From assembly GCA_014382695.1 (NCBI GenBank), contig JACNJF010000194.1, positions 861-64,860 on the forward strand: 64,000 nt of DNA, in the 5' to 3' direction. Shown piece after piece: positions 5,101 to 53,862 of this stretch (position 1 is the stretch's first letter; every line of letters starts with the position of its first letter). Under the pieces are notes generated by a model. That model was given only the letters and a program-made list of their open reading frames with translations. It searched no databases and had not been told where the DNA came from. The stretch comes from Gammaproteobacteria bacterium. GTDB taxonomy: Bacteria; Pseudomonadota; Gammaproteobacteria; GCA-001735895. A program made the translations under genes and the position numbers.

Positions 5101-6531
5101 CAACGCAAGGATGGCAGCGTGTATGACGAGCTGGCGATCATTTCGCCGGTGCGTGATGCCAATGGAACTATCACCAATTATCTCGGCATCAAGGAAAACA
5201 TTACCGAGAAAAAGCATGCTGAAGCGCGCATTCAGCAACTGGCCTATTTTGACCAACTCACCGGCCTGCCCAATCGCAGCCAGTTGATTGACCGCTTCAA
5301 TTCTGCACTCAGTTTTGCGCAACGTAATACTGAGAAATTGGCGCTCATGTTTCTGGATCTGGATCATTTCAAGAATATCAATGACACCCTGGGGCATAGT
5401 ATTGGAGATAAATTACTGGTAAAGGTTGCGCACCGGCTTAAACGTATCCTGCGCGAAGAGGACACTTTATCGAGGCTGGGCGGTGATGAGTTCATCCTGT
5501 TATTGCCAAATACCGAGGAAGATGAAGCGCGCCAGATTGCGATTAAACTGATTGAAGCGATTGCTCTACCGTTTCAGCTTGATCAGTATGAACTGGGAAG
5601 TACGCTGTCGATAGGTATTGCGATCTACCCGCTTGATGGCGAAGACTTTGAAACACTGCTACGCAATGCGGATACCGCAATGTACCGGGTGAAACAGGCC
5701 GCGCGTAACGATTTCTGTTTCTTTACCGAGGAGATGCAACTGCATTCTGCGCGCGCATTGAAACTACTGAATGCATTACGTCATGCGCTGGCACGGAATG
5801 AACTGCAGCTACATTATCAGCCACAAATAGAGTTGGTCAGTGGAAGGGTGATTGGTGCGGAAGCCTTACTGCGTTGGAACAATGCTGAGCTGGGTATGAT
5901 TTCACCGGCTGAGTTTATCCCGATTGCGGAAGAGAGTGGACTGATTTTACCGATCGGTGAATGGGTGTTGCGCAGCGCAGTGACTCAGATGAAGCGCTGG
6001 ATGGATGACGGCCTGGCACCGATTGTCGTAGCCGTGAATCTGTCCGTGGTGCAGTTTCGTCATCCTAATCTGACCGACCTGGTCACACGGATACTGAAAC
6101 AGGCTGGTTTGCCGGCGCAGTATCTGGAGCTGGAGTTGACCGAGGCGGTTGCGATGAAAGATCCACAGGGTGCTATTGGAGTGATGAACCGATTGCATGA
6201 GCAAGGTATCCAGATGTCGATCGATGACTTTGGAACCGGTTATTCCAGTTTGAGTTATCTAAAGAAATTCAAGATTGCCAAACTCAAAATCGACCAGTCA
6301 TTTGTACGCGATATTATTGATGATCCGGATGATAGGGCGATTGTGGTTGCGATCATCAATCTGGCCCGTAGTCTGGGTATCCAAACCCTTGCCGAAGGGG
6401 TCGAAACGGAGCATCAGCAGTCACTCCTGCAGGCCCAGGGCTGTGATGAAGTGCAGGGTTATTACTACAGCAGACCGCTGCCGGCGGATCAGTTTGAAGC
6501 CTATGTGCGGAATAAGACAGGCTTAAATTGA
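2191..6531 (+). CDS. sensor diguanylate cyclase/phosphodiesterase: periplasmic SBP (family 3)-like domain, TM, GAF/PAS, three PAS/PAC, GGDEF, EAL
   Basis: Signal/TM segment LIYLVFVSIFLLSSVAFA. A solute-binding-like domain precedes a second TM. The GGDEF motif RLGGDEF is intact with an RxxD I-site (REED), and the EAL motifs EALLRW and DDFGTGYSSL are intact. The true start may lie downstream of 2191. Confidence 0.9.
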   Translation: MILAQPLTRPDIGMHQSISVGINGLFHDLEYSLSLLFNILIYLVFVSIFLLSSVAFANQAPGFVATSLLRVALDDNYPPYVMRRTDGSVEGYLIDEWKLWEAKTGVKVELIATDWAQAKKNMAEGRSDVIDTIFRTSERETRLEFSAPYATLPVSIYTISKLLGINDINGLEGFRVGVKDGDACVDRLRAGGITDIKPYTDYETLLQAVLAEKVHVFCMDDPPANYLIFRAGAEHKLLKAFSLYSGEFHRAVRKGDSATLALVESGFAAITAPEREALQDKWMGQSLQNPLLRNLIYYLVIAAILAVLLLVVSLILRHLVRVRTAALVTSQNKLQATLDALPDLLFEMDINGCYLAYHSPRTDLLALPVEHFLGKKNDELLPPEVAKIGMEAIQEAAQMGFSSGRQFELRLGGVIHWFELSVARKSGEAGKLPSFVVLSRDITSRKLAELQVARLTRLYAALSQCNQAIVRCTTEAELFTQICRDAVNFGGMKMAWIGLMDETTNSVNPVAAFGEGIKYLEGLEISLDANSASGRGPTGIALREDRPYWCQDFEQDPATALWHERAAEFGWKSSAALPLYRNNIIIGAFNLYEDSVDAFDEAAQNLLVEMATDISYALTNFAHQQARQQAEHEREQLLQREQQARNEADKTRRTISDIIGRISDGFVALDRNWCYTYVNSQAAEMFDRSVEQLVGKHIWTEFPEGVGQKFQLAYEKAMHEQKPAFFEEYYPPYKRWFENHIYPSPDGISIYFHDVTERKRIEQALRESEQAYRATFEQAAVGIANVAADGTWLEVNNRLAEIVGYTHDELLELTFQDITHPADLQKDLDSVHRLLAGEIDTYKMEKRYIRKSGDFIWIQLTASLVKNDDGSPKYFISVIEDIHQRKLDEVQLHKLSIVVEQSPNPIMITDLDTKIEYVNAAFNQVSGYSSDEALGKTPQLLKSGETPIEVYQDMWAHLLRGEVWRGELTNQRKDGSVYDELAIISPVRDANGTITNYLGIKENITEKKHAEARIQQLAYFDQLTGLPNRSQLIDRFNSALSFAQRNTEKLALMFLDLDHFKNINDTLGHSIGDKLLVKVAHRLKRILREEDTLSRLGGDEFILLLPNTEEDEARQIAIKLIEAIALPFQLDQYELGSTLSIGIAIYPLDGEDFETLLRNADTAMYRVKQAARNDFCFFTEEMQLHSARALKLLNALRHALARNELQLHYQPQIELVSGRVIGAEALLRWNNAELGMISPAEFIPIAEESGLILPIGEWVLRSAVTQMKRWMDDGLAPIVVAVNLSVVQFRHPNLTDLVTRILKQAGLPAQYLELELTEAVAMKDPQGAIGVMNRLHEQGIQMSIDDFGTGYSSLSYLKKFKIAKLKIDQSFVRDIIDDPDDRAIVVAIINLARSLGIQTLAEGVETEHQQSLLQAQGCDEVQGYYYSRPLPADQFEAYVRNKTGLN

Positions 6532-13413: not shown

Positions 13414-15969
13414 TTACTCCTGCTTAAGCGTGAAAGAAAAAGTGGTGCCTGAACCATAGATGCTCTCCACCTGTATGTTGCCACCATGTAACTCGACTAG
13501 ACGTTTTGTAATGGCCAGACCAAGCCCCGAACCGCCCACATTGCGGGTGGATGAATCATCGACCTGATGAAAGGTATCAAATATGAATGGCAGTTCCTTC
13601 TGTGGGATGCCAATACCAGTATCGGCCACGCTGAAGGTAACCCGTTTATCCTGTTGCACCGCCGATATTTTTATACTGCCCTGGCGGGTAAATTTAAGCG
13701 CATTTCCGAGCAGGTTGATCAAAATCTGACGCAGGCGACGTGCATCGACCTGAAACTCAAAATCTTGCGCATCGGTCATCAGCTCAATCGACTTGCGCTC
13801 GGCCAGGTTTTCAAACTTGCGTATCATCTCCTGGATTAGCGGGAGGCTGTGGATTGTTTCCAGTTGAAGATCCATCTGGCCGGCTTCTATCTTGGAGATG
13901 TCGAGTAGATCGTTGATCATTTCGAGTAGATGGTTGCCGGAAATATCCATATCGTTGGCGATCTGTGCAATGATTTCAGCAGATGGCATCTGTTCCAGGT
14001 TTTTTAGCATGGGCAGATAACCCAGAATGACGGTGAGAGGGGTACGCAGCTCATGACTCATCACGTTCAGAAACGCTGACTTTTGCCGGTTAGCATCTTC
14101 GGCGGCCAGCTTTGCCCTGAGCATGGCCTGTTCCGAGCGTTTTTGCTCGGTAATATCCAGGTTCACCCCGATCATGCGCTGGGCACGCTTTTGATCATCC
14201 AGCACTACCAGTGCAGAGGCCTTGATATGGCGTTCTTCATGATTCGGCCACAGGATACGAAACTCCGTTTCGAAAGACTTGCCATTCTGAATCGCGTCAT
14301 TCAGTTCTGCTTTGGTGCGCAGTAGATCATCCGGATGCAGCGCTCCCTGCCAGGCTTCGTAGGCATCAGGAAACTGATCTTTGGTGAGGCCATACAGGTC
14401 GAACATACGTTTATCCCAGTTCAGGGTGTTCTGGATCACATCAAAATCCCATACCCCAATACTACCGGCACGAGCGGCCAGCTCCAGACGATCATTAAAT
14501 TCCTTTAACTCGTTTTCCTGCTGTTTCATATCGGTCAGGTCCTTAACTGTACCGATAAACAGTGTGCCCCCATTCACCTGAGCCTGTCCGACCGACAGGT
14601 TCATCGGGAAGGTGAGCCCTGATTTTCTTTTACCGACCACTTCACGTCCGATACCAATGATGCGCTTTTCATGGGTTTGCTGATAATGATCCAGATAACC
14701 GTCATGCTCAGAATGGTATGGCTCAGGCATCAGGATTTTAATATTCTGACCGATCACTTCTTCGGCACTATATCCAAACATTTTTTCAGCCGCAGGGCTG
14801 AATAGACTGACAATACCCAGAGGATTGATCGTGATCACGGCATCGACGGCATTCTCAACGATTGTCCGGTTCATCTTTTCACTTTCAACCAGTTGCCGAC
14901 TGCGCTGGTTAACCAGTTTTTTAATGACAACCTCGCGGTTAATCAGATTGCGTAGATAAAAGCTGATCAGCAGGGTGAAGGTTATACCCACCGCTAACAC
15001 CAGCCACTCGGTCTGTTTGGAATGCAGCTGGGCAAACTGGGTGGTGGCGATACTGGTGATGCGCCAGGTACGGTTAGCAATCTGGATATCCCTGGCATAG
15101 CGCCAGCGCCAGCCTGGCAGGGGTTCCAGTTGCGCCGAAGATTTCATGCTATAGAGTAGTTCGGTATCTGCCAGATCAGTGATATCGATGATCTTTATCA
15201 TCAGTGGATCGAGTAATGCCTTGAGTGGCTGAATGGCCGATTTAAACAGGTCGCCCACGCGAAATACGCCTAACACATAGCCATTAAATCTTTCCTGCGA
15301 CAGGGTCTGGTTTTTTTCTAGCGGTACAAATATGGGTTGAATAATCAAAAATCCCTTTTGTCGGGCGGATGCCTGAATCAGGGTAATGCTTGAGGTTGCC
15401 TGCGTTTGCCGGCTTAGACGTGCCATTTGCAGACTGGCCATGCGCTCGGGACTGGTTGCAAGATCAAACCCTAATACCGCCATGTTTCTGGCCAGGGGTT
15501 CAACATAAAACACCGGGTAATATACCCAGTGATCCTGGGTTGGGATTAGTTTTCCTTCGGCGTTTTGTGACCTGAACTCAAAATCAGTCAGGCCGTCCGC
15601 AAGCGCATTTAAGCGATAGGTTTCACGTTCGCTGGCCATCACCTGCGGAACCCATTCCATGGCATGGATTGAAGCGTTATCCCTGATCAGGGATTCGGTA
15701 AAGCGGAAGAAGTCTTCCCGGCTGACCTCGGGAGACACCATAAAAAACCGTTGTATACCGGATAGTCTGCTCTGATTGATTTCGAGTTCCTTACTCAGCG
15801 CATCGATGGCGAGCTGAGTGGCGCTTTCGTGTTCGACCTGAATGGTGCGGTTTTCCAGCTCTACTGCGACCCGAAACGCCAGAAAACTTAAGCCTAATCC
15901 TGTAAATAGAACCAGCCAGTGAATAAAGCTATTGCGCTGTTCCCGGTAAGGCTGCTGCATGGTTAACAT
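13414..15969 (-). CDS. sensor histidine kinase with periplasmic CHASE domain, PAS/PAC domains, HisKA and HATPase_c
   Basis: Two TM helices flank a periplasmic domain of about 250 aa. The H-box is MSHELRTPL, and the ATPase G-boxes are GSGLGLAI. There is no fused receiver. Confidence 0.9.
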   Translation of the reverse strand: MLTMQQPYREQRNSFIHWLVLFTGLGLSFLAFRVAVELENRTIQVEHESATQLAIDALSKELEINQSRLSGIQRFFMVSPEVSREDFFRFTESLIRDNASIHAMEWVPQVMASERETYRLNALADGLTDFEFRSQNAEGKLIPTQDHWVYYPVFYVEPLARNMAVLGFDLATSPERMASLQMARLSRQTQATSSITLIQASARQKGFLIIQPIFVPLEKNQTLSQERFNGYVLGVFRVGDLFKSAIQPLKALLDPLMIKIIDITDLADTELLYSMKSSAQLEPLPGWRWRYARDIQIANRTWRITSIATTQFAQLHSKQTEWLVLAVGITFTLLISFYLRNLINREVVIKKLVNQRSRQLVESEKMNRTIVENAVDAVITINPLGIVSLFSPAAEKMFGYSAEEVIGQNIKILMPEPYHSEHDGYLDHYQQTHEKRIIGIGREVVGKRKSGLTFPMNLSVGQAQVNGGTLFIGTVKDLTDMKQQENELKEFNDRLELAARAGSIGVWDFDVIQNTLNWDKRMFDLYGLTKDQFPDAYEAWQGALHPDDLLRTKAELNDAIQNGKSFETEFRILWPNHEERHIKASALVVLDDQKRAQRMIGVNLDITEQKRSEQAMLRAKLAAEDANRQKSAFLNVMSHELRTPLTVILGYLPMLKNLEQMPSAEIIAQIANDMDISGNHLLEMINDLLDISKIEAGQMDLQLETIHSLPLIQEMIRKFENLAERKSIELMTDAQDFEFQVDARRLRQILINLLGNALKFTRQGSIKISAVQQDKRVTFSVADTGIGIPQKELPFIFDTFHQVDDSSTRNVGGSGLGLAITKRLVELHGGNIQVESIYGSGTTFSFTLKQE

Positions 15970-17609
15970 TCATCATGAATAATAGTTTTGTTACGGCCAC
16001 TTTCCTTGGCCTGATAAAGGGCTTCATCCGCCGCTTCTATCAGCTTATTTTCCTGGCTGAAAGTGGTGCTGCCGGATATCCCTGCGCTAAAACTGCACTT
16101 AAACTCTTCCTTGTCACTCTTGAACGTTAGCTGAGAAAAAGAAACACGCAGTTTTTCAATGATTTCGAAGGCGGCATCCGGACTGGTATTCGGCATGATA
16201 ATACCAAATTCTTCGCCACCGTAACGCCCAATCAGATCGGATTTACGCAGGCGATCTGTCAGCAATTGCGCAAGAGATTTGAGTACTCGGTCGCCAATCG
16301 AATGGCCGAAACGGTCATTAACCTGTTTAAACAGGTCTATATCCAGCATCAGGTAACTGAGTGGTTCATTTTGACGCTGGCTACGAGCCAGTTCGGATTC
16401 AACCCGGCGTTTAAGGGTGATCTGATTGAGTAAGCCGGTCAGGCCATCGTGATACATCAGCTCGCTGAGGGTGCGCGAACGCTCTATTCTCGACTCAATG
16501 GTACTGATCAACTGTTTATCATCGATCGGTTTTACCAGAAAATCATCGCCCTGTTGCAGGGTCTGCAGCTGGATTTTACGGTTGGTTTCGGTCGACAGAA
16601 AAACAATCGGTGTACTGAAGTAGGTTTGATGCTGGCGCAATACGCTGGCGACTTCAAGACCGGTGATGCCTGGAAAATAAAAATCAAGCAACACCAGTTC
16701 CGGCTGAAACAAGGACATTTGCTCAAGGATGTGTTCTGGATCTGCTAATACGCTGGTATGCATACCCGCCTGACGTAATACCAGGCTGTAGTGCTGGGCC
16801 AGTTCTTCGGTATCGTCTACCACCAGCACCCGGTAGGGCTCGCGCCGGACCCGTTGCGTGATCAGATCCAGGTGATTCACCAGTTCGGAAATATCCAGTG
16901 GTTTTTCCAGGTAAGCGGAGCCACCTGCGCGCACCGCGGCGAGCCGGGATTCCCAGTCCTTGCGTTGAGAGATGAACAGAGCAGGTACCGGTTGCTGTAA
17001 AAGCTGGCGTATCTCGGAGGCAAACTGAGTGCCCGCTAATACACCTTCGGGCAAAATGATATCGAGTACCAGTGCATCCGGTATCTGCATTTCTACCATT
17101 TTTCTGGCGTCAGTCGCGGATGAAAATAAATGGGTTCTAAATCCATAATGTTGCAACTGCAGGCACAGATCCTGTCCCTGAAAAGCTTCATCTTCCACGA
17201 TATATATCAGACGCTGGGCCATGATGGATGGGGTAGTCAGCTGTTCCAACGGCTCAATAATCGAGGTGTTTTCAGGCCCGTTCTCAATCAGGGTATGCAA
17301 TGCCTGCAATCCCCGAACGAGATATTTTGTGGTTTTGCTATCCAGCGTATTTTTCTGGTTTATCGCCTCTTTGAGGATTAATTCCAGTTGGCGCGACTGC
17401 TCACTTAACTGAAAAAATCCGAAGGTACCGGCTGATCCACTCAGACTATGGATCTGGCGGAATATGTCATGCAGCATGGTTGCCGGGTCCGAATGATCGA
17501 CCAAACCATTCAGATCCGCAATCATCTGATCTACGCGAATCCCAAGATTAGCGGCAAACTCCAGCCTGAGAGCCGCTAACTGTTGCTGTATGTCATCCTG
17601 TCCGGGCAT
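15963..17609 (-). CDS. response regulator with N-terminal HPt domain, two receiver domains and a GGDEF (GGEEF) diguanylate cyclase domain
   Basis: HPt-like His in QIHSLSGSAG. Two REC domains (IVEDE...LDIILP and VVDDT...LDFYFP). GGEEF motif with an RKSD I-site. The gene overlaps the HK gene by 7 nt. Confidence 0.9.
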   Translation of the reverse strand: MPGQDDIQQQLAALRLEFAANLGIRVDQMIADLNGLVDHSDPATMLHDIFRQIHSLSGSAGTFGFFQLSEQSRQLELILKEAINQKNTLDSKTTKYLVRGLQALHTLIENGPENTSIIEPLEQLTTPSIMAQRLIYIVEDEAFQGQDLCLQLQHYGFRTHLFSSATDARKMVEMQIPDALVLDIILPEGVLAGTQFASEIRQLLQQPVPALFISQRKDWESRLAAVRAGGSAYLEKPLDISELVNHLDLITQRVRREPYRVLVVDDTEELAQHYSLVLRQAGMHTSVLADPEHILEQMSLFQPELVLLDFYFPGITGLEVASVLRQHQTYFSTPIVFLSTETNRKIQLQTLQQGDDFLVKPIDDKQLISTIESRIERSRTLSELMYHDGLTGLLNQITLKRRVESELARSQRQNEPLSYLMLDIDLFKQVNDRFGHSIGDRVLKSLAQLLTDRLRKSDLIGRYGGEEFGIIMPNTSPDAAFEIIEKLRVSFSQLTFKSDKEEFKCSFSAGISGSTTFSQENKLIEAADEALYQAKESGRNKTIIHDEC

Positions 17610-17756
17610 AGGGCTTTTATACTCACGATTAAAAAAATACGATAAATTAGATTAATAAATCAGTATAAACTTGTTTTATAGTTCTGTACTAGGCGTCAGA
17701 TTCATATTAATGTAATGTCCAGTTTTTATGTGGTTTTAAGGTAAGAGAGAGCAGCA

Positions 17757-19847
17757 TTGGAAAGCGCTAATATCCTGATCGTAGAAGATGACCTTTTCGA
17801 GGCAGAGCATCTTAAACTACACCTGCAACAGGCAGGTCATCATATCGTAGATATCCTCAGCTCTGGCGAAGAAGCTATCGCCAGAGTTAACCACAATGGG
17901 ATCGATATCATGTTGGTGGATATCGTACTATCCGGAGAGCTGGATGGTATCGAGGCGGTACAACAAATCCGTAATAAACAGGATATTCCTGTCATTTTTC
18001 TGACCGCACATGTGAATGCTGATTTGCTGTTAAGGGCAGAACGAGCACGACCTTTCGCTTATCTACTCAAGCCCTATCGTCAGCTTGAGCTCGAATTCAT
18101 GATTAACATGAGTCTGGCCCGGAAGCGCGTTGAACAGGAATTGGCAACCCAGAAAGATCTGGCTGAAGCTGAATTACGTCAGGCTCAGGCCATTATTCAT
18201 CATACCAATGAAGGGGTGATGATTACGAACTCAGAAAGAATTATTATGTTCGTAAATCCGGCATTCAGCCGGATCACAGGTTATGAGCTGGATGACTGTA
18301 TCGGACAGAAAACGAGCATTCTGAATTCAGGCCGGCATGATGATGCGTTTTATGCCGATATCTGGTTTTCCATAGAGCATTACGGTCACTGGCAGGGTGA
18401 GCTATGGAACCGGCGTAAAAATGGTGAAATTTATCCGGAATGGTTGACGATAAATCCTATAGCTGAGCGTGATGGCAGTATCCGTCGTTATGTGGGTATC
18501 TTTTCTGATATCTCCAGCATCAAGCAGTCTGAAGCGGAGCTGGAACATCTCGCGCATCACGACCCGCTGACCAATCTGCCCAATCGCCTGTTATTGATGA
18601 CACGATTGCGCTATTCGCTACGCACCGCTTCCCGTCACCGACTGATGTGTGCGGTGCTGTATATCGATCTGGATCGTTTCAAGTTGATCAATGACAGCCT
18701 CGGGCATGAAATCGGGGATGTGGTTTTACAGACGGTTGCACGGCGATTCGAGAATCAGGTGCGCGAAGCCGATATGGTGGCACGTCTGGGCGGTGATGAA
18801 TTCGTGGTACTGCTGGAAGGCATCACTGATCCGGTCGATGCTTCGCTGATTGCACAAAAAATCATTCAGTCTCTGGAGCAACCGGTGATGGTGAATGACC
18901 ATCGTTTTTCGATCAGTTGCTCCATCGGTATTGCGATTTACCCGAAGGATGGGAATACGGTGGAGGACCTGTTACGTGATGCCGATTCGGCCATGTATCA
19001 GGCCAAAAAAATGGGTATGAACAATATCGTTTTTTACACCGAAGATATGACGCGTAAGGCTTATCGACGCATCAAACTCTACAGTGAGTTACGTCAGGCG
19101 CTGGTTAATCAGGAATTCAGACTCCATTATCAACCCCAGATCAATATGAAGTCAGCCAGCTTAATCGGGGTAGAAGCCCTGATCCGCTGGAAGCATCCTG
19201 AGAAAGGATTGATGGGGCCGAAGCATTTTATCCAGGAAGCCGAAGATACCGGACTGATCATTCCGATTGGAATATGGGTGTTGCAACAGGCCTGCCGGGA
19301 TATGAAGTCCTGGCTCGATAAGGGCCTGAAGTTTGGACGCGTATCGGTGAATGTCGCCGGTCCGCAGCTACAACGTGGTGATTTACTAACCGTGGTGAAT
19401 ATGGCGCTGGCAAAAGCGGAATTAAAACCGCAGTATCTGGAACTGGAGCTGACCGAGACCTATGCCATGGAACTGATAGAATCGCATCTACAGACACTCA
19501 ATGACCTCAACACCATGGGCGTCAGCATCGCTATCGACGATTTCGGTACCGGCACATCATCACTGAGTAAGCTGAAAAATCTGCACATCGACAAACTCAA
19601 GATTGATCGCTCATTTGTCACCGATATCCCGATGGATAAAAACGATGAAGCGATTACCCGTGCAATTATCGGGATGAGTCACACGCTGGGTCTGAGTGTG
19701 ATCGCGGAAGGGGTCGAGACGAAATCACAGGAACAGTTTCTGATTCGTGAAAACTGCCTGTTTGCTCAGGGCTTTCTATACAGCAAGCCGCTCAATATTA
19801 TTGAATTTGAAAAATTTGCGGCGAAATACAATCCACTACCGGATTGA
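17757..19847 (+). CDS. response regulator REC-PAS-GGDEF-EAL
   Basis: TTG start. REC domain (ILIVEDD...MLVDIVL), PAS domain, GGDEF with READ I-site, and EAL (EALIRW, DDFGTGTSSL). Confidence 0.9.
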   Translation: MESANILIVEDDLFEAEHLKLHLQQAGHHIVDILSSGEEAIARVNHNGIDIMLVDIVLSGELDGIEAVQQIRNKQDIPVIFLTAHVNADLLLRAERARPFAYLLKPYRQLELEFMINMSLARKRVEQELATQKDLAEAELRQAQAIIHHTNEGVMITNSERIIMFVNPAFSRITGYELDDCIGQKTSILNSGRHDDAFYADIWFSIEHYGHWQGELWNRRKNGEIYPEWLTINPIAERDGSIRRYVGIFSDISSIKQSEAELEHLAHHDPLTNLPNRLLLMTRLRYSLRTASRHRLMCAVLYIDLDRFKLINDSLGHEIGDVVLQTVARRFENQVREADMVARLGGDEFVVLLEGITDPVDASLIAQKIIQSLEQPVMVNDHRFSISCSIGIAIYPKDGNTVEDLLRDADSAMYQAKKMGMNNIVFYTEDMTRKAYRRIKLYSELRQALVNQEFRLHYQPQINMKSASLIGVEALIRWKHPEKGLMGPKHFIQEAEDTGLIIPIGIWVLQQACRDMKSWLDKGLKFGRVSVNVAGPQLQRGDLLTVVNMALAKAELKPQYLELELTETYAMELIESHLQTLNDLNTMGVSIAIDDFGTGTSSLSKLKNLHIDKLKIDRSFVTDIPMDKNDEAITRAIIGMSHTLGLSVIAEGVETKSQEQFLIRENCLFAQGFLYSKPLNIIEFEKFAAKYNPLPD

Positions 19848-40632: not shown

Positions 40633-40731
40633 GCGAAGTTCGTGGAGTGCAACTATCGGTTGCGCGATGTTTTCTATATAATGATTTCCTTATATTAAAT
40701 TTAAGGCCTCCAACTGGAGCGGGTGTATGCG

Positions 40732-42132
40732 ATGAAGTACCTTCCGATATTTTATGAAATCACCGATAAGCCCTGTGTAGTGATCGGAGGCGGGGGGATT
40801 GCCGCACGTAAAGCCGACCTGTTACATCAGGCGGGTGCCAGAGTCAGTGTGATTTCCCCCGAGCTGGGCGATGAAATGTCGCGCTTTCAACAACAGGGTA
40901 AGATTAGCTGGCAGCAACGTAATTTTGAGGCAGGTGATCTGACCGATTATTTTCTGGTGATCGCCGCAACCAGTGACAGGCGGGTCAATGAACAGGCTGC
41001 GGCTGAAGCACTGGTGCTGAAGATTCCCTGTAATGTGGTGGATAACCCAGAGCTATGCAGTTTCATCATGCCTTCGATTATCAACCGGGATCCAGTACAG
41101 ATTGCGGTATCTACCGGTGGCGCATCACCGGTGCTAGCACGTCTGATTCGGACCAATCTGGAAAGCTGTACGCCATCGGCCTATGGCAAGCTGGCGAAGC
41201 TGGTCGAAAAGTATCGTGACCGGGTCAAAAGTACCTTCCCACGCGTGGTCGAGCGTCGTAAATTCTGGGAGTCTATTCTGGAAGGGCCGGTGGCTGAACA
41301 TATCTTTGCCGGTCGTAACGACGATGCCCGACAGTTGATTGAACAACTGATCGACAAGGCCGATTCCAACCCGTCCTATAAAGGTGAAGTGTTTCTGGTA
41401 GGTGCCGGTCCGGGAGACCCCGACCTGCTCACCTTTCGCGCCTTACGCCTGATGCAAAAGGCCGATGTCATCGTCTACGATCGACTGGTTTCGCAACCGA
41501 TCATGGATCTGGTGCGGCGTGACGCGGAGCGCATCTACGCCGGCAAGGAACGCTCCCATCATGCGATACCCCAGGAAAACATCAATCAGTTGCTGGTGCG
41601 GTTGGCCAAAGAAGGCAAACGTGTACTACGCCTGAAAGGTGGCGATAACTTCATTTTCGGACGCGGTGGTGAAGAAATATCTGAATTGATCGATGAAGAT
41701 ATCCCGTTTCAGGTCGTGCCCGGTATAACTGCCGCTTCCGGTTGTACAACCTACGCAGGTATTCCGTTAACCCACCGTGATTATGCGCAGGCCTGTATCT
41801 TTGTGACCGGCCACCTGAAGGATGGCTCCAGTGATCTGAACTGGGATATGTTGTCGCATGCGAATCAAACGGTGGTTTTTTACATGGGGCTGGTGAATGT
41901 TCAGTCGATCTGCGATTCACTCAAACAACATGGCCGAGCCGCCTCTACACCGGCTGCGTTGATCGAAAAAGGTACAACGCCGGAACAACGGGTTTTTATC
42001 GGTGATCTGGATACCTTACCGGGGCTGGTGAACCAGAATAATGTCAAGGCCCCGACCCTGATTGTGGTCGGTGAAGTGGTGGAGTTGCATAAGAAACTGC
42101 ACTGGTTCAAGCCGGGCGAAGAGATTAAATAG
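40732..42132 (+). CDS. cysG: siroheme synthase
   Basis: Three functional regions: precorrin-2 dehydrogenase, sirohydrochlorin ferrochelatase, and uroporphyrinogen-III C-methyltransferase. MKYLPIF...VVIGGGGIAARKADLL matches the E. coli CysG N-terminus, and the SUMT motifs VGAGPGDPDLLT are present. Confidence 0.95.
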   Translation: MKYLPIFYEITDKPCVVIGGGGIAARKADLLHQAGARVSVISPELGDEMSRFQQQGKISWQQRNFEAGDLTDYFLVIAATSDRRVNEQAAAEALVLKIPCNVVDNPELCSFIMPSIINRDPVQIAVSTGGASPVLARLIRTNLESCTPSAYGKLAKLVEKYRDRVKSTFPRVVERRKFWESILEGPVAEHIFAGRNDDARQLIEQLIDKADSNPSYKGEVFLVGAGPGDPDLLTFRALRLMQKADVIVYDRLVSQPIMDLVRRDAERIYAGKERSHHAIPQENINQLLVRLAKEGKRVLRLKGGDNFIFGRGGEEISELIDEDIPFQVVPGITAASGCTTYAGIPLTHRDYAQACIFVTGHLKDGSSDLNWDMLSHANQTVVFYMGLVNVQSICDSLKQHGRAASTPAALIEKGTTPEQRVFIGDLDTLPGLVNQNNVKAPTLIVVGEVVELHKKLHWFKPGEEIK

Positions 42133-42855: not shown

Positions 42856-42906
42856 CTTATATATTCGGGTAGAATCCGCGCCTTTTAATCTGTGCAAGGC
42901 GAATCT

Positions 42907-44463
42907 ATGTTCCAACTCACCTGTCCTGGTAAACAATGTGTAAAAAATGATGTGTTATCCGGTCTGACCGTCGCGTTGGCGCTGGTTCCGGAAGCAGTCG
43001 CTTTTGCCTTTGTCGCGGGTGTCGAACCTCTGGTAGGCCTGTACGGCGCCTTTATGATGGGAATCATCACCGCTTTTATCGGCGGTCGTCCCGGTATGAT
43101 TTCTGGAGCCACCGGTGCGATGGCGGTGGTGATGGTGTCGCTGGTTGCTCAGCATGGGGTCGAGTATCTGTTTGCCGCGATTATCGTCACCGGTTTGATC
43201 CAGATGAGTGCCGGTGTGCTGCGCCTGGGCAAGTTTATCCGTCTGGTGCCTTTCCCGGTAATGCTGGGTTTCGTGAATGGTCTCGCCATCGTTATTTTTC
43301 TGGCCCAGTTACAGCAGTTCAAGGTGATTTCAGCCGATGGTGGGCTGGAGTGGATGAGCGGACAGTCATTGTTGATTATGCTGGGTCTGATTGCGCTGAC
43401 CATGGCGATCATCCACTTTTTACCTCGTTTTACGGTTGCTGTTCCAGCTTCTTTGGCTGCCATTATTACAGTGACTCTGCTGGTCATCGGACTGGACCTG
43501 GATAGCCGCTCGGTGGTTGATGTATTGCGTGATATGACGGGCGATATGCAGGCCACGATTGCGGGTGGTCTACCTTCGTTTCATCTACCCGTTGTGCCGT
43601 TTAACTGGGAAACACTGCGGATCATTCTGCCTTACAGCATTATTCTGGCTGGTGTTGGCCTGATTGAGTCGCTGCTGACGCTGAATCTGGTGGATGATCT
43701 GACCGAAACCCGTGGGCGTGGTAATCAGGAGTGTGTCGGGCAGGGAATCGGTAATACCGTCAATGGCCTGTTTGGCGGAATGGGCGGCTGTGCCATGATC
43801 GGACAGTCCATGATCAATATCAATTCGGGAGGCAAGGGCCGCCTGTCAGGCATCAGCGCGGCGCTGTTTCTGCTGGGATTTATTCTGTTCGCTTCCGGCC
43901 TGATCGAAATCATCCCGGTCGCAGCGCTGGTCGGGGTGATGTTCATGGTGGTGCTTGGCACCTTTGAATGGGCCACCTTTCGCATGATCGGTAAAGTGCC
44001 GTTGGCGGATATTCTGATTACCATTCTGGTTGCGGCTGTCACCGTTATATCGGATCTGGCGATCGCCGTTATCGTCGGCGTCATCGTGTCGGCACTGGTA
44101 TTTGCCTGGGAGCATGCCAAGCACATGAACGCGAAGTCTTTTATCGATGAAAATGGCAGTAAAATCTATGAGCTAAACGGGCCGCTGTTCTTTGGTTCGG
44201 TGCATGCCTTTCATGAACTGTTTAATCCACGCGAAGACCCGGATGATGTAATCATCGATTTTTATAATTCACGGGTTGCCGATCATTCCGGCATCGAAGC
44301 CATCGATAGTCTGGCTGAGCGTTATCAGCGTAACGGTAAAACACTGCATCTCAAGCATCTGAGCGAAGAATGCAAGCTGCTGCTACATACGGCCGGAAAC
44401 CTGGTAGAAGTGAATGTAATGGAAGATCCGGTATACCATGTGGCGGATGATCTGCTGGATTAG
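42907..44463 (+). CDS. SulP-family sulfate/anion transporter with C-terminal STAS domain
   Basis: Signature region [18 protein letters not shown], multiple TM helices, and a STAS domain at the C-terminus. Confidence 0.9.
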
Positions 44464-48527: not shown

Positions 48528-50525
48528 ATGCCTATCCGCAGGCAGGCCAGGGTATTAAAGATTGTATTCGTGCTGTTATTTGCTATCCCGTTGCTGGGAT
48601 GCTTTAACTCTGACTCTGAGTCCCCGCCAACGTTTGAGTATCGCGCCGCACTCAAGCCTTTTTCCAGCTGTGATGCACTCGCCACCTATCTACAGGATAC
48701 GGCCGAGCAGCAGAATCGTCTGAGTCAGTATTATTATGCGCTGCCGGGCATCAGTAATGCCGTGCAGGATAATGTCATCGGTATTCCGGGTGGAAATGTC
48801 GCGCTAAGTGCGGATGCTATTGCGCCGGCCATAGAAACTACCCGTACAATCAGCGAGTTTACCCAGACCAATAATCAGGTGAGTGGGGTCGATGAAGCCG
48901 ACTTCATCAAAACCGATGGCGACTATAGCTATATCGTGAGCGGTGGCTTTCTGGTCGTAGTGGATAACTGGCCAGCCGATCAAAGCTCAATACTGGCTCG
49001 GATAGCGGTGAAAGGCTTGTCTTCCAATCTGTTTGTGTATCAGGATACGGTGTGGGTCGTGAGTGATTTAATGAGCACCGACCTGTCCGCCAGTCAGATG
49101 GCCTTTGCACCCCGGGTCAATCAGTTAACCCTGATTTCAATGTTCGATATCACCGATCGCAGCAATCCGCTGTTGCTGCGTGAAACAACACTGGAAGGTT
49201 ACTATGTCGATGCCAGACGTATTGATAACCGGGTGTATCTGGTCACTTCCGCTTACTTTGATCTGTATCCGTTACTTTCTGATAATGCCAGTCCTGCGAT
49301 TGATACGTTGCTACCGAAGCTGTCCGACCGAGTGTATAACGCAGGAATCAGTAGCGTCAGTGAACAGCTGATCAGCCCCTGTGAACAGATCTATCAACCG
49401 GGTACCGCAAATGGCACCGGTACCATCACCCTGTCGACGTTTGATTTACTGACACCTCGGTCTGAGATCAAACGCCAGACCATCATCAGTAATTCAGGAA
49501 CCATCTATGCCAGTCGTGAGCATCTTTATCTGGCCACGGTAGAGGATAACTTCTGGACCTGGTTGCCCGTGCTGGAAGGCGATGAAGTTCCCAGTCCTGG
49601 TACTACCTTGCATAAATTTAGCCTGTTGCAGGAACCGGTGTATCTGGCCAGTGGACGAGTCGACGGTTATCTGTTGAATCAGTTTGCGCTGGATGAACAT
49701 AACGATTTATTGCGCATAACTACTACCAGTTTTGCGTGGTGGAACAACCAGCCGCCGCAGAACAGGCTGTATATCCTTGAGCAGCAGGGTGAGCGACTGG
49801 TGCAACGCAGTCAGCTAGATGGGCTGGGTAAGCCCGGAGAGCGCATCTATGCCACACGCTTTTTTGGTGATCAGGGTTTTGTCGTGACTTTCCAGCAGAT
49901 TGACCCGTTGTATACGCTGGATCTGAGTGATCCGGATAATCCGCAAGTTGCTGGCGAACTGGAGGTTCCTGGATTTTCCACCTATCTGCATCCTCTGGAG
50001 GATGGTCTGCTGCTGGCGATTGGACGCAACCAGAGCAATAACGCCACCGATGTCAGTCTGTTTGATACCACGGATTTTTCTCAACCGGCACTGCTGCATC
50101 GGATCTCTATCGGCAAGGACAGTTATTCGGAAGCTGAATACAATCATAAGGCCTTTACCTGGTATCCACGTGAACAGTTGTTGGCGCTGCCGGTCACGCG
50201 TTGGTCGGGTGATTTGGTGCGGGATGGTTACTCGGGCTACCGACTGTTCAACGGTCTGCAATTATATCGGGCCGACCGAGTAAATGGTTTCGCTGATGTT
50301 GGGCTGGTCGATCATAGTTCGCTGTATCAAAATAGTACGGGCCAGTTCTGGTATCAGCCGGAAAATATCCGTAGAAGTTTTTTTGTGGCTGATGACGCAA
50401 ATCAGAGTTACCTGTACTCGGTCAGCAGTCGTGGCATCAAGATCAATGCACTCGGCGATCTGGCAACGGATCTGGCGGTACTAGAATTACCCGTGTATGA
50501 CAGGCAGAATGTTCTTTTTTATTAA
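48528..50525 (+). CDS. lipoprotein with C-terminal beta-propeller domain (Beta_propel/PF09826-like)
   Basis: Lipobox LLGC. The 665-aa product has repeated beta-strand-rich segments. Family assignment is from memory of the family architecture. Confidence 0.6.
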   Translation: MPIRRQARVLKIVFVLLFAIPLLGCFNSDSESPPTFEYRAALKPFSSCDALATYLQDTAEQQNRLSQYYYALPGISNAVQDNVIGIPGGNVALSADAIAPAIETTRTISEFTQTNNQVSGVDEADFIKTDGDYSYIVSGGFLVVVDNWPADQSSILARIAVKGLSSNLFVYQDTVWVVSDLMSTDLSASQMAFAPRVNQLTLISMFDITDRSNPLLLRETTLEGYYVDARRIDNRVYLVTSAYFDLYPLLSDNASPAIDTLLPKLSDRVYNAGISSVSEQLISPCEQIYQPGTANGTGTITLSTFDLLTPRSEIKRQTIISNSGTIYASREHLYLATVEDNFWTWLPVLEGDEVPSPGTTLHKFSLLQEPVYLASGRVDGYLLNQFALDEHNDLLRITTTSFAWWNNQPPQNRLYILEQQGERLVQRSQLDGLGKPGERIYATRFFGDQGFVVTFQQIDPLYTLDLSDPDNPQVAGELEVPGFSTYLHPLEDGLLLAIGRNQSNNATDVSLFDTTDFSQPALLHRISIGKDSYSEAEYNHKAFTWYPREQLLALPVTRWSGDLVRDGYSGYRLFNGLQLYRADRVNGFADVGLVDHSSLYQNSTGQFWYQPENIRRSFFVADDANQSYLYSVSSRGIKINALGDLATDLAVLELPVYDRQNVLFY

Positions 50526-50538
50526 AGTGAGTTTCGAC

Positions 50539-50901
50539 ATGCTCAGAGCCTTCATTATATTCACGCTTGTCTTTATTCAAAACGCCTGTGTGACCAGCAG
50601 TACTGTAATCACCGGCGAAGTCAGGGAGCGGATTGAGTTTGAGGCCGTGGAAGTGTTTTTTAATACTGCGCCTGACTGTGATTTCGATGTCATCGCCCAT
50701 ATCAATATCCCAGGTACCTATTTCAACCGCGCATCGCTGATCGACGCGTTTCGCTGGAAAGCCGCTTCGGTTGGCGCTAATGCAATACAGATCCTCGATA
50801 TTCAGCCGGTTGGTGTTAACGAGATGATGGGTTCAGCCAGAGCCTTACGTTGCGAGCGTGCAGTCCCTCTGTTCAATCCGATCGAGAAAGTTGACCTTTA
50901 A
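50539..50901 (+). CDS. small putative lipoprotein (about 120 aa)
   Basis: Internal start MLRAFIIFTLVFIQNAC with a lipobox-like FIQNAC. The track ORF at 50497 overlaps the upstream gene. Confidence 0.45.
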   Translation: MLRAFIIFTLVFIQNACVTSSTVITGEVRERIEFEAVEVFFNTAPDCDFDVIAHINIPGTYFNRASLIDAFRWKAASVGANAIQILDIQPVGVNEMMGSARALRCERAVPLFNPIEKVDL

Positions 50902-50943: not shown

Positions 50944-52416
50944 ATGTTCTCTTTTTCCTCCCAGTTCTCAGATGGTGAAAACAGTTACCGGCTGATTGCC
51001 GCACTGTTTCTGCGCCTGCTCGCCATCATTTATTTCATGGCCTTCTTTTCTCTCAGCTTTCAGATTACCGGGCTGGTGGGAGAGCAGGGCATACTGCCAC
51101 TCAGCCCCTGGCTGGATAGCCTGCTGAGTGAAATGGGCGGCTCGGCTTTTGTCTACTTTCCGATGTTGTTCTGGTTTGAGCAGAGCGATTTTTTCCTGCA
51201 GGCAGTAGCCTGGTCGGGTTGTGTTGTTTCAATTTCGCTATTGCTTAATATCTGGCCCAGACTGAGCCTGATCCTGCTGTTCATTTTCTATCTGTCGCTG
51301 GTTAAGGCAGGGCAGACCTTTATGAACTTTCAGTGGGATGGCTTACTGCTGGAGGCTGGATTTCTGGCAATTTTTCTACGTCCGGATTCCAGAATCCTGA
51401 TCCTGTTATTCCGCTGGTTACTGTTTCGCTTACGCTTCATGTCCGGTATTTCAAAACTGGTGATGGGCGATCCGTCCTGGCTGGGCATGACGGCGCTGAT
51501 CTATTACTTTGAAACCCAGCCGTTACCGCATGTAGGGGCCTGGTATTTTGATAACCTGCCGCAGATACTACTGATCGCCGCTACCGTTCTGGTGCTGATC
51601 ATTGAGATCATAGTGCCTTTTATGATGTTTTTACCCCGGCGTTATCGTCTGATAGCCGCCTGGGCCACGCTCGCGCTGCAAGTGCTGATTATGCTCAGCA
51701 GTAATCACAACTGGTTTAACTTTCTGACCATCGCGTTATGCCTTTTTCTGTTCGATGATAAAGCCGTGCGACGCATCGTACCGGGTGGGCTGGAACGCTG
51801 GTTGACCATGAGCTGGGCGCAACGCCTGCAAAACCCGCGCGCTCGACGTTCGGTGGCGGCGAGTTATCTGCTGGCGGGAGTGGTTACGCTGGGCGGTATC
51901 CTGAGCATCCATAAATTGGTCACCAACAGGAGTCTGGGCACTGTTGCCGATACCCTGCAGGATATCCTGCAGCAATGGCATATCGTGAATACCTATCATG
52001 TTTTCCCAACCATGACGACGCGTCAGATCGAACTTAAAATTGAAGGCTCTATCGATGGGATTAACTGGAAAGAGTATGAGTTTATCCATCGCCCAAATGC
52101 GCTATCGAAAGCACCGACGATCGTTTTCCCGCATCATCCGCGACTCGACTGGATGATGTGGTTTGTGCCGTTTCATCCACGCTTTTTACCCTGGTTTGAT
52201 GCTTTCCTGCAAACCCTGCTGGAAAACTCAGCGCAGGTAACGGCATTGCTAAAGGATAATCCGTTCAAGGACCAGGCTCCCCGCTATCTGCGTGTGAATG
52301 CCTGGCACTATGAGTTTACCAGTCCCGCCGAGCGTGAGCAGACTGGCAACTGGTGGAAACGCAGTTATCTGGGACCCTTTTACCCGCTACCCGGTAAATA
52401 CAGGATCGCGCCCTGA
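50944..52416 (+). CDS. lipase maturation factor (LMF1)/HTTM-like polytopic membrane protein
   Basis: 490-aa product with an N-terminal YRLIAALFLRLLAIIYFMAFFS hydrophobic core and many TM helices. Resembles bacterial LMF-family proteins. Confidence 0.55.
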   Translation: MFSFSSQFSDGENSYRLIAALFLRLLAIIYFMAFFSLSFQITGLVGEQGILPLSPWLDSLLSEMGGSAFVYFPMLFWFEQSDFFLQAVAWSGCVVSISLLLNIWPRLSLILLFIFYLSLVKAGQTFMNFQWDGLLLEAGFLAIFLRPDSRILILLFRWLLFRLRFMSGISKLVMGDPSWLGMTALIYYFETQPLPHVGAWYFDNLPQILLIAATVLVLIIEIIVPFMMFLPRRYRLIAAWATLALQVLIMLSSNHNWFNFLTIALCLFLFDDKAVRRIVPGGLERWLTMSWAQRLQNPRARRSVAASYLLAGVVTLGGILSIHKLVTNRSLGTVADTLQDILQQWHIVNTYHVFPTMTTRQIELKIEGSIDGINWKEYEFIHRPNALSKAPTIVFPHHPRLDWMMWFVPFHPRFLPWFDAFLQTLLENSAQVTALLKDNPFKDQAPRYLRVNAWHYEFTSPAEREQTGNWWKRSYLGPFYPLPGKYRIAP

Positions 52417-52420
52417 TGCC

Positions 52421-52588
52421 TCACTTGTGTAACTTGCCTTTATCAGTATTGGATGGTTTTTCCTGTTTATGCTCTGCCTGAGCAGGGGGATACAGACTAT
52501 CCATCATTTCCCCGGTGGTTAAAATAACCGTTATATCGTCATCGACTTCGTCGTCGTTGGCTGTTTCTCTGGGTTGCTTATCACGCAT
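52421..52588 (-). CDS. possible small acidic protein (55 aa)
   Basis: I translated this manually: MRDKQPRETANDDEVDDDITVILTTGEMMDSLYPPAQAEHKQEKPSNTDKGKLHK. SD AGAGG lies 6 nt upstream. It fits the gap between flanking genes exactly. Confidence 0.3.
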   Translation of the reverse strand: MRDKQPRETANDDEVDDDITVILTTGEMMDSLYPPAQAEHKQEKPSNTDKGKLHK

Positions 52589-52610
52589 TCTGGACCTCTA
52601 TTCTCAGTAA

Positions 52611-53771
52611 TCATGCTGGCCAGTATTCCGTCTGTATGGATTCTCCTAAATCGGCATCGATCAGACGCTGTCTGACTTCGAGCAGTTTTTTAATTAATGC
52701 TGGTTCCGCCTTCTCATAGGCGGCTGCATCCGGCGCACGCTTAACAACCACGCCGAGTAATTCTGTAATCGCATTGCCTATCGAGTTCTGGCTGATGGTG
52801 ACGACCCATTTGCCACTATCGTTACGATAGATAAGCTGCTTGAAAGCCGGCTGCCAGCGTATCGCGTTGGCATATTGCGCGTTTTTAATGCACTGGTCAC
52901 GTACAATCTTGGCGGTGCTCAAAAAATCATTATTAAAGAGCAGCTTTTCTGTTACCTGTTGCGGGAAATTGACATTTTTTGGGATGGCAGCATTGCGCGT
53001 TGAAACCTGGCTGAAAAAAGTGCGGTAAAAATCGATAAACCCTTTTAGAATGATATCGTACTCTTGCCAGAATTTAACCTCCTTTATGGAATCCAGACCA
53101 CCACTAATCTCCCAGCAGGGAAGTCCCTGCGGGTAACCGGTCAACATCAGCTGCGACGAATCGCCAGTCATCGGTTTTAGTATTTCCAGCTCCAGGGTGT
53201 CGAAAAAAGCACAATAGGCATCATGCATATAGCTTTGAAACAGACTGTGCTGGCCACCATCGGTGAGGTTTGGGTTGTTAGTTTCAGCCAGCGGAGCATC
53301 ACGCAGTTGCTGTTTATCGAATACGATGAAATGATTGTGCAGCATGCGGATGCTGGGAACTCCAGCGGAGGTCAGCGGCCAGGTTGCATCCAGACTGGCT
53401 TCACCACACAGCAGCAGATGATTTTTCGGGTTGGGGAAAATCTCGTGCATGTAGCTGATCAGAATCTGGTTCATGCGGTTCCAGACATTGCGTACATTTT
53501 CCGGTACCTGAGTGCGCCTTACCGGACGACCCAGCGGATCCAGTATAACCTTGGATGTGTTGTAAATGATGGAGGCGTCGAATACATTGGAGTGTCCCAG
53601 CGCCTTCCGATACATTAACAGGTTTTCATCGTTGCGTAACAGACCGTTGTTATGCTCAAGATCATTCAGGTTTTCTGTGCTGTTGAAAAATTCATTCGGT
53701 TTCATACCTTCTGGCACATCCAGTGGAATGGGCCGGAATGGCGTGGTTATTTCTCTTGGTCCGGTGGTCAT
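52611..53771 (-). CDS. hypothetical protein (386 aa), no recognisable family
   Basis: Long ORF with coding-like composition. Contains LHNHFIVF, a possible HxHxx histidine motif. Monocistronic apart from the small downstream ORF. Confidence 0.7.
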   Translation of the reverse strand: MTTGPREITTPFRPIPLDVPEGMKPNEFFNSTENLNDLEHNNGLLRNDENLLMYRKALGHSNVFDASIIYNTSKVILDPLGRPVRRTQVPENVRNVWNRMNQILISYMHEIFPNPKNHLLLCGEASLDATWPLTSAGVPSIRMLHNHFIVFDKQQLRDAPLAETNNPNLTDGGQHSLFQSYMHDAYCAFFDTLELEILKPMTGDSSQLMLTGYPQGLPCWEISGGLDSIKEVKFWQEYDIILKGFIDFYRTFFSQVSTRNAAIPKNVNFPQQVTEKLLFNNDFLSTAKIVRDQCIKNAQYANAIRWQPAFKQLIYRNDSGKWVVTISQNSIGNAITELLGVVVKRAPDAAAYEKAEPALIKKLLEVRQRLIDADLGESIQTEYWPA

Positions 53772-53862
53772 ACAGGGATACTCTGAGCTTTAAAATGTGC
53801 ATTAGGATACAGCAAAGAGAATGATTTTAGTCTTCAAAAAAACTTGGGTAGATATTCAATAG

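What the first reader, a model, noticed from the sequence alone, without database searches (positions are those of the whole stretch)
52421..53771. Monocistronic orphan 386-aa protein with a downstream 55-aa acidic ORF
I could place the 386-aa product in no family. It contains LHNHFIVF, an HxHxx-like motif reminiscent of HIT/GalT-type nucleotidyltransferase histidine triads, but that is speculative. A 55-aa highly acidic ORF with a good SD (AGAGG) fills the exact gap to the convergent neighbour.
Basis: inference. Interest (0 to 1): 0.5.

Follow-up and report, generated by a model that had tools for sequence, protein, structure and literature searches.

The report
Uncatalogued HIT-fold enzyme family, acidic partner
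The "orphan" 386-aa protein is a very highly conserved, never-described member of the histidine-triad (HIT/GalT-like) nucleotide-enzyme fold, found in hundreds of sulfur-cycling bacteria, and in this lineage it is followed by a real but dispensable small acidic protein; its substrate is unknown.

The parts
52611..53771 (-). Gene for the 386-aa protein (44.0 kDa, pI 5.95; NCBI MBC8212668.1, 'hypothetical protein'). It belongs to an uncatalogued family with a HIT-like fold.
53316..53654 (-). N-terminal HIT1-like lobe, residues about 40-152. Order of elements: strands 43-46, 51-55 and 64-70, helix 91-111, strand 118-125, a low-confidence loop, then strand 145-152.
53319..53354 (-). Candidate active-site motif S140-I-R-M143-L-H145-N-H147-F-I-V-F151. 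The H145 codon is 53337..53339 and the H147 codon is 53331..53333.
   Evidence: S140, M143, H145 and H147 are invariant in the 46-sequence alignment spanning 26-94% identity. P0268 reads SVPSIFMNHVHAIAF and P0124 reads VPSIRMIHNHLMVF. The motif sits on the last strand of the HIT1-like lobe. Which histidine is the nucleophile is an inference.
52863..53078 (-). Helical region, residues 232-303. It is read as an auxiliary or insertion domain between the strands of the second lobe.
   Evidence: DSSP of the model shows helices 232-257, 270-278, 281-296 and 298-303. The domain interpretation is an inference by analogy with the auxiliary domain of Apa2 (bioRxiv 10.64898/2026.09.13.751320).
52656..52856 (-). 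C-terminal sheet plus long helix, residues 306-372, read as a HIT2-like second lobe. It contains the most conserved block between clades, RWQPAFKQLIYRND..VTISQNSIGNAITELLGVVVKR.
   Evidence: Strands 311-316, 322-327 and 341-347 and helix 349-372. 77% identity to the Desulfobulbales clade over residues 306-348. The full-length model aligns 174-192 residues with two-lobed HIT proteins, against 99-119 for the N-lobe alone. The lobe assignment was not tested on its own.
52421..52588 (-). 55-aa acidic small ORF (NCBI MBC8212667.1), presumably co-transcribed (inferred from the 22-nt spacer and the lack of a predicted terminator). It starts 22 nt after the stop of the 386-aa gene. Conserved core: DD-x-T-V-I-L-T.
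   Evidence: Homologous 36-49-aa ORFs occur at the same position in L004/L005, L007, L008, L010, L011, L012, L088 and L090. Over the 17-codon core pS is 0.78, pN 0.28 and pN/pS 0.36, and every pairwise comparison in either shifted frame met a stop codon in at least one sequence. The ORF is absent in L087, L009 and all other clades.
52595..52599 (-). Shine-Dalgarno AGAGG of the small ORF, 6 nt upstream of its ATG.
   Evidence: Sequence. Seven of the eight homologous copies have an AGGTG, GAGGT, GAGGA or GGGTG run upstream of the ATG; L088 has only GAG.
53803..53811 (-). TGTATCCTA, an extended -10-like element about 32-40 nt upstream of the ATG, in the 91-nt divergent intergenic region shared with the EamA gene.
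   Evidence: Conserved as TGTAT[CGTA][CA][TA]N in WIN, L087, L090, L007, L010, L006, L011, L012 and L088. The consensus promoter scan found no site, so this is an inference.

Best explanation
The 386-aa gene encodes a soluble enzyme of the histidine-triad (HIT) superfamily. Solubility is inferred: no signal peptide or membrane segment is evident by eye, and this was not tested. The family has not been catalogued. Its architecture resembles the single-chain, two-lobed GalT/Ap4A-phosphorylase branch. An N-terminal HIT1-like lobe carries the catalytic strand. A second, degenerate lobe follows, interrupted by a helical auxiliary region. By analogy with all characterised HIT enzymes, it should bind a nucleoside-monophosphate conjugate (NMP-X) and attack its alpha-phosphate with a histidine of the invariant S140-x-x-M143-x-H145-x-H147 motif. 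This would form a covalent nucleotidyl-enzyme, and the NMP would then be passed to water or phosphate. I favour H145 as the nucleophile, because the invariant Ser then sits at -5 as in Hint, Fhit and GalT; H147 would take the third-His role and Met would replace the first His. The gene is a solitary, apparently constitutive chromosomal unit. In this lineage only, it has acquired a presumably co-transcribed small acidic protein (inferred from the 22-nt spacer) that is under purifying selection but dispensable, so it is most likely an accessory modulator or partner. Shown: the family exists, its conservation and distribution, the fold, the invariance and strand position of the motif, and the coding status of the small ORF. 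Inferred: catalysis, which histidine is the nucleophile, the substrate class, and any interaction with the small protein.
Confidence: 0.6

Rival explanations
1. This is a more specific version of the best explanation. The enzyme handles adenosine 5'-phosphosulfate (APS) in dissimilatory sulfur metabolism, for example as an APS:phosphate adenylyltransferase ('ADP sulfurylase', APS + Pi -> ADP + sulfate) or an APS hydrolase. It would be an analogue of the T. denitrificans APAT.
For: The distribution is dominated by sulfur oxidisers that, from general knowledge, use the APS pathway: Thiodiazotropha, Sedimenticola, tubeworm and clam symbionts, Thioglobus, Thiobacillus, Sulfuricellaceae and Sulfuritalea. 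It also includes Desulfocapsaceae and Desulfobulbaceae. APAT is one of the three groups of the GalT family. APAT is invoked for sulfite oxidation and disproportionation in reviews. That HIT enzymes (Fhit, Hint4, Apa1/2) accept APS is my own recollection.
Against: The APAT group is defined by HXHXQ-phi-phi and by recognisable similarity to GalT and Ap4A phosphorylase, and this family has neither. The gene is never next to apr, sat, dsr or qmo in about 90 loci. Some hosts, such as Methyloversatilis and Hydrogenophilus, are not classical APS-pathway organisms. Co-occurrence with apr and sat was not tested genome-wide.
Confidence: 0.12
2. The protein is a dinucleoside-polyphosphate (Ap4A/Ap3A) phosphorylase or hydrolase, or another housekeeping nucleotide-scavenging HIT enzyme, with no specific link to sulfur metabolism.
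Against: A housekeeping Ap4A enzyme would not be expected to be restricted to about 0.3% of species, nearly all sulfur-cycling. The motif differs from both the Fhit and the Apa types. Structural rank among remote hits says little about substrate.
Confidence: 0.12
3. The protein is a non-catalytic HIT-like protein that binds a nucleotide, RNA or a partner protein, as the CWF19 proteins do in the spliceosome. The conserved histidines would then serve in binding or in metal coordination.
Against: Two adjacent histidines plus the -5 Ser are invariant on the catalytic strand down to 26% identity, while the rest of the protein diverges. That pattern is typical of an active site.
Confidence: 0.13
4. 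The 55-aa ORF is a chance open frame in the 3' spacer and not a gene.
For: It is absent in the closest relative L087 (94% id, 33-nt spacer) and in L009. It is absent in all other clades. The window copy is atypical in length and charge.
Against: Nine loci keep an ORF in the same place with the same core, D-[DE]-T-[VIL]-[IV]-[LM]-[TS]-[DE]-E-[DE]-[KR]..I-L, and eight of them also have a Shine-Dalgarno-like purine run. Synonymous sites are saturated (pS 0.78) while pN is 0.28. The other frames are closed. In L088 the ORF stays with the 386-aa gene although the downstream neighbour is different.
Confidence: 0.08

Closest known systems
Ap4A phosphorylases of the GalT branch (yeast Apa2, PDB 4I5T; M. 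tuberculosis Rv2613c, PDB 3ANO)
   Different: Sequence identity is 9%. No Pfam ATP_transf or Ap4A_phos_N hit was found. The motif is M-x-H-x-H-phi-phi or H-x-H-phi-phi rather than HXHXQ. Apa2 does not appear in the N-lobe-only search.
CWF19L1/CWF19L2/Cwf19 (CwfJ C-terminal HIT-like domains; PDB 6ID0_U, 8RO1, 3JB9_c)
   Different: They are eukaryotic spliceosome and debranching cofactors. Identity is 4-10%, and no CwfJ_C_1 or CwfJ_C_2 Pfam hit was found. There is no functional parallel in bacteria.
Fhit and Hint single-domain HIT hydrolases (for example 7P8P, 5CS2, 6YI0)
   Different: The first His is Met. The protein is three times larger and is a pseudo-dimer in one chain rather than a homodimer. 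No sequence similarity is detectable.
Galactose-1-phosphate uridylyltransferase and ADP-glucose phosphorylase (1GUP, 6K5Z, 1Z84)
   Different: There is no HXHXQ motif and no match to the GalP_UDP_transf Pfam models.
APS:phosphate adenylyltransferase (APAT, 'ADP sulfurylase') of Thiobacillus denitrificans (Bruser, Selmer and Dahl 2000, cited)
   Same: A GalT-family enzyme from a sulfur oxidiser. This family also occurs in Thiobacillus and related taxa. The subunit size is similar from memory (41 against 44 kDa).
   Different: The APAT group carries HXHXQ-phi-phi and is recognisably similar to GalT and Ap4A phosphorylase, and this family is not. A direct comparison was not possible because the APAT sequence is not held by the tools.

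Membership tests
HIT superfamily | The alpha+beta HIT fold: an antiparallel sheet with a long helix and the catalytic strand last. | tested here: met
   [not shown]
HIT superfamily | [quoted passage not shown] | tested here: inconclusive
   Two of the three positions are His in either register. The motif reads M143-L-H145-N-H147-F-I or H145-N-H147-F-I149-V-F. S140, M143, H145 and H147 are invariant. hhalign could not fix the register.
HIT superfamily | The second His acts as nucleophile and forms a covalent NMP-enzyme (ping-pong mechanism). | not testable with these tools
   This needs biochemistry: [alpha-32P]NMP labelling and H145A/H147A mutants.
HIT superfamily | Sequence membership of a HIT-clan model (HIT, DcpS_C, GalP_UDP_transf, ATP_transf, CwfJ_C_1, DUF4931 and others). 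| tested here: not met
   No Pfam hit at E<=1 for the window protein or at E<=10 for any of 46 members. NCBIfam gives none. A family profile against PDB sequences gives 0 hits at E<=10.
GalT family (GalT / Ap4A phosphorylase / APAT groups) | The modified motif H-X-H-X-Q-phi-phi. | tested here: not met
   The position after H-x-H-x is I, M or V in the gamma/beta and Desulfobulbales clades and I in P0268 (H-V-H-A-I); it is never Q.
GalT family (GalT / Ap4A phosphorylase / APAT groups) | Two HIT-like subdomains (HIT1 and HIT2) in one chain, with the motif in HIT1. | tested here: inconclusive
   Aligned length to two-lobed targets rises from 99-119 residues (N-lobe) to 174-192 (full length). The motif is at the end of the N-lobe. 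The C-lobe was not modelled or searched separately, and hhalign of the N half against the C half was insignificant.
APS:phosphate adenylyltransferase (APAT) | Catalyses APS + Pi -> ADP + sulfate. | not testable with these tools
   An enzyme assay is needed. The only support is the taxonomic distribution.
APS:phosphate adenylyltransferase (APAT) | Sequence homology to the T. denitrificans APAT. | not tested
Indirect evidence is negative, since the family lacks the GalT-family motif and any Pfam hit.
Anti-phage defence or phage/plasmid gene | A match to PADLOC or PHROG models, or presence on plasmids or phages. | tested here: not met
   PADLOC gives 0 hits. PHROGs gives only E 0.2 noise. tblastn against plasmids and phages finds no match.

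The most novel reading that the evidence does not exclude
The family is a previously unrecognised nucleotidyl-transferase of dissimilatory sulfur metabolism. One example would be a second, non-homologous APS:phosphate adenylyltransferase or APS-handling enzyme that releases sulfate from APS without needing pyrophosphate. That would explain its restriction to sulfur-oxidising Gamma/Betaproteobacteria and sulfur-disproportionating Desulfobulbales, its extreme conservation, and the reported 'ADP sulfurylase' activities in organisms where no gene is annotated.
Probability: 0.12. Interest if true: 0.75.

Novelty: new variant of a known kind. Interest (0 to 1): 0.45.

Why it matters
The family is large (at least 573 species and 3351 clusters at 90% identity). 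It is extremely conserved, at about 75% identity across proteobacterial classes. It is confined largely to bacteria that drive marine and freshwater sulfur cycling, including many animal symbionts, yet every database calls it 'hypothetical' and no domain model covers it. Placing it in the HIT superfamily with a defined candidate catalytic motif (S140/M143/H145/H147) turns it into a directly testable enzyme. A short substrate panel and two point mutants would reveal its chemistry. If the substrate is APS or a related sulfonucleotide, the family would fill a gap in how sulfur oxidisers and disproportionators conserve energy from APS. If not, it still adds a new branch with a Met-His-His motif to a well-studied enzyme superfamily. 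The lineage-specific acidic mini-protein is a candidate regulator.

Tried and rejected
- Sequence-family searches (Pfam, NCBIfam, PADLOC, PHROGs, PDB by single sequence and by family profile) were all negative.
- Foldseek against PDB gave nothing significant. Its top hits (MbtI, beta-lactamases) have TM about 0.1 and were rejected as noise. The afdb50 library was unavailable.
It cannot decide the motif register.
- hhalign of the N half against the C half for an internal duplication gave a probability of 1%.
- No HIT-family ORF was found in the fetched loci to serve as a reference.
- Guilt by association failed. Clustering of neighbours over 75 loci and three Desulfobulbales contexts showed no conserved partner. 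EamA and LMF1 synteny is lineage-level only.
- Rfam and the promoter/terminator scans of the region found nothing relevant. A k-mer search of upstream regions found only a lineage-level -10-like element and no known operator.
- Literature searches for the APAT gene family gave only citations. The JBC paper, the Brenner review and the T. denitrificans genome paper are not held. One proteomics search was uninformative.
- Pfam on 20 other window genes showed housekeeping functions and no dissimilatory sulfur genes.

Full report
**Observation.** The window holds a 386-aa ATG ORF at 52611..53771 (-) and a 55-aa ATG ORF at 52421..52588 (-). The spacer between them is 22 nt. An AGAGG lies 6 nt before the second ATG, at 52595..52599. 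The small ORF ends 4 nt from the stop of a convergent 490-aa gene (50944..52416), which is a bacterial LMF1/LMF1_C homologue. Upstream, 91 nt away and divergent, is an EamA transporter gene. LHNHFIVF is residues 144-151. The description is therefore accurate, with two exceptions covered below: the protein is not an orphan, and the 55-aa copy here is only moderately acidic (13 D/E against 8 K/R).

**The 386-aa protein belongs to a large, unnamed family.** It has no hit in Pfam, NCBIfam, PADLOC or PDB sequences, and only noise in PHROGs. In contrast, 3351 clusters at 90% identity match it at E<=1e-3. The best 120 are all about 386 aa, 77-94% identical, and either unnamed or called 'hypothetical'. 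An exhaustive HMMER scan of 1.84 billion 50%-identity representatives found only 147 hits, most of them fragments. The family is therefore compact and has no detectable distant relatives.

The full-length divergent members are:
- A Desulfobulbales clade at about 53% identity (Desulfofustis, Desulfogranum, Desulforhopalus).
- P0124 at 44% identity.
- P0191 and P0268 at 26-29% identity.

A scan of one genome per GTDB species found at least 573 species with the gene. The best 80 are almost all sulfur-oxidising Gamma- and Betaproteobacteria at 74-86% identity: Ca. Thiodiazotropha, Sedimenticola, Solemya, Escarpia and Lamellibrachia symbionts, Thioglobus, Thiobacillus, Hydrogenophilales, Sulfuricellaceae, Sulfuritalea and Rhodocyclaceae. 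About 75% identity across two proteobacterial classes means very strong purifying selection. The exact window protein is NCBI MBC8212668.1, a hypothetical protein from a Gammaproteobacteria MAG. The family is absent from plasmid and phage collections.

- Fhit, Hint proteins, GalT, ADP-glucose phosphorylase, DUF4931, CDP-diacylglycerol pyrophosphatase and aprataxin.

The element order is three strands, a long helix (91-111), strand 118-125, a loop, then strand 145-152. This is the HIT order (my knowledge of the fold). Strand 145-152 is the last strand, where the triad sits in the HIT fold, and it carries H145 and H147. Two-lobed HIT proteins align over 174-192 residues with the full model but only 99-119 with the N-lobe. 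This indicates a second HIT2-like lobe (strands 198-201, 219-222, 311-347 and helix 349-372) interrupted by a helical region (232-303). That architecture is the one described for Apa2: HIT1 plus HIT2 plus an auxiliary domain, with the motif in HIT1 (bioRxiv 10.64898/2026.09.13.751320). One caveat is that Apa2 itself is missing from the N-lobe search, for reasons I could not determine.

**Motif.** Across all 46 sequences S140, M143, H145 and H147 are invariant, as are K56, S61, D65, R82, S126, D128 and D171. The most distant members read SVPSIFMNHVHAIAF (P0268) and VPSIRMIHNHLMVF (P0124).

[quoted passage not shown] The GalT family, which includes Ap4A phosphorylases and APS:phosphate adenylyltransferase, has HXHXQ-phi-phi. 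Neither is fully met here.
- In the alternative register (M143, H145, H147) the first His is Met, but the two hydrophobic residues follow correctly. The invariant Ser also falls at -5 from the nucleophile, as in Hint (S107/H112), Fhit and GalT (S161/H166); those residue numbers are from memory.

I favour the second register at roughly 60:40. Profile-profile tests could not decide, and the tools give no residue-level superposition.

**Genomic context.** Clustering all flanking ORFs of 75 loci gave no family shared beyond a single lineage. The EamA / gene / LMF1 arrangement of the window is seen only in its closest relatives. Sedimenticola and three Desulfobulbales genomes have entirely different neighbours, each time with a divergent gene upstream and a convergent gene downstream. 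The gene is a solitary unit. A TGTATCCTA-like extended -10 element is conserved about 32-40 nt upstream in this lineage. No Rfam family or known operator was found. Other genes in the window are ordinary chromosomal ones, with no dissimilatory sulfur genes in these 64 kb.

**The acidic ORF.** Eight related loci (L004/L005, L007, L008, L010, L011, L012, L088, L090; partner protein 82-87% identical) have a 36-49-aa ORF starting 19-29 nt after the stop. Seven of the eight have an AGGTG, GAGGT, GAGGA or GGGTG run upstream of the ATG; L088 has only GAG. They share the core D-[DE]-T-[VIL]-[IV]-[LM]-[TS]-[DE]-E-[DE]-[KR]-x-x-I-L followed by a 36-47% acidic tail.

Over the 17-codon core, synonymous differences are saturated (pS 0.78) while pN is 0.28 (ratio 0.36). 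Every pairwise comparison in either shifted frame met a stop codon in at least one sequence. In L088 the ORF stays with the 386-aa gene even though the downstream neighbour is Dus/RelA instead of LMF1.

The ORF is nevertheless missing in the closest relative L087 (94% identity, 33-nt spacer), in L009, and in every other clade. It is therefore a real, recently acquired and dispensable small protein linked to the HIT-like gene. The window copy is the most divergent one, with a 14-residue N-terminal extension and a basic tail.

**Function.** What is shown:
- A HIT-like two-lobed fold (predicted).
- An invariant Ser-x-x-Met-x-His-x-His on the catalytic strand.
- Extreme conservation.
- A solitary chromosomal gene.
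- A distribution centred on sulfur-cycling bacteria.

What is inferred: the protein is an active nucleotidyl-transferase or hydrolase that forms a His-NMP intermediate (confidence about 0.6). The substrate is open.

The distribution and the existence of APAT inside the GalT family make APS an attractive candidate. Three points hold that reading at about 0.12: the family lacks the GalT-family motif, it is never linked to apr, sat or dsr genes, and I could not compare it with the T. denitrificans APAT sequence. Ap4A-type substrates (about 0.12) and a non-catalytic binding role like CWF19 (about 0.13) remain possible.

**Novelty and verdict.** The family is not in Pfam (2025), NCBIfam (2026) or PDB, and all sources call it hypothetical. 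By fold it is a new, motif-variant branch of a known superfamily, so I rate it a new variant of a known kind. Interest is moderate (0.45). The family is well defined, widespread and experimentally tractable, with a possible link to sulfur energy metabolism, but the chemistry is not yet known.

Noticed in passing
P0124 (homologue; not in the window): This 44%-identical homologue has W at 13 of 15 conserved Gly columns, with 29 W and only 4 G overall. It was evidently translated with UGA=Trp from an organism that reads UGA as Gly (code 25, Gracilibacteria/Absconditabacteria). The family has therefore reached such a lineage, probably by horizontal transfer.
   Followed up: partly
window 50944..52416 (+), 50497..50901 (+), 48528..50525 (+): The convergent neighbour is a bacterial homologue of eukaryotic lipase maturation factor (LMF1 plus LMF1_C, E 1e-48 and 6e-41). 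It is preceded by an unannotated 134-aa ORF and a 665-aa Beta_propel (PF09826) protein. This block is syntenic with the HIT-like gene only in the window's lineage.
   Followed up: partly
P0128 (704 aa): A representative that joins an unrelated N-terminal region, two fragments of this family and what looks by eye like C-terminal ankyrin-type repeats. It looks like a chimeric or frameshifted metagenomic gene call rather than a real fusion.
   Followed up: no
L001-L003 7303..7566 (+): In Sedimenticola the homologue is followed by an 87-aa basic ORF (MSHKREKMLAAIFNEP...) unrelated to the acidic ORF. It looks HicA-like by eye.
   Followed up: no
window 53803..53811 (-): A TGTATCCTA element (extended -10-like) about 32-40 nt upstream of the ATG is conserved in nine related loci. 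The generic sigma-70 scan reports no promoter in the 91-nt divergent intergenic region.
   Followed up: partly
[not shown]
   Followed up: no
window 2191..6531, 13414..19847: There is a dense cluster of c-di-GMP signalling genes: a 1446-aa SBP-GAF-PAS-GGDEF-EAL protein, a CHASE-PAS histidine kinase, an Hpt-REC-GGDEF protein and a REC-PAS-GGDEF-EAL protein. The window also carries sirohaem synthase (40723..42132) and a SulP/STAS sulfate permease (42892..44463).
   Followed up: no
L091-L093 (Desulfobulbales), upstream of position 7001: The 5' intergenic regions of the Desulfobulbales homologues are long (about 260-780 nt), against 91 nt in the window. They were not examined for leader RNAs or regulatory elements.
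   Followed up: no
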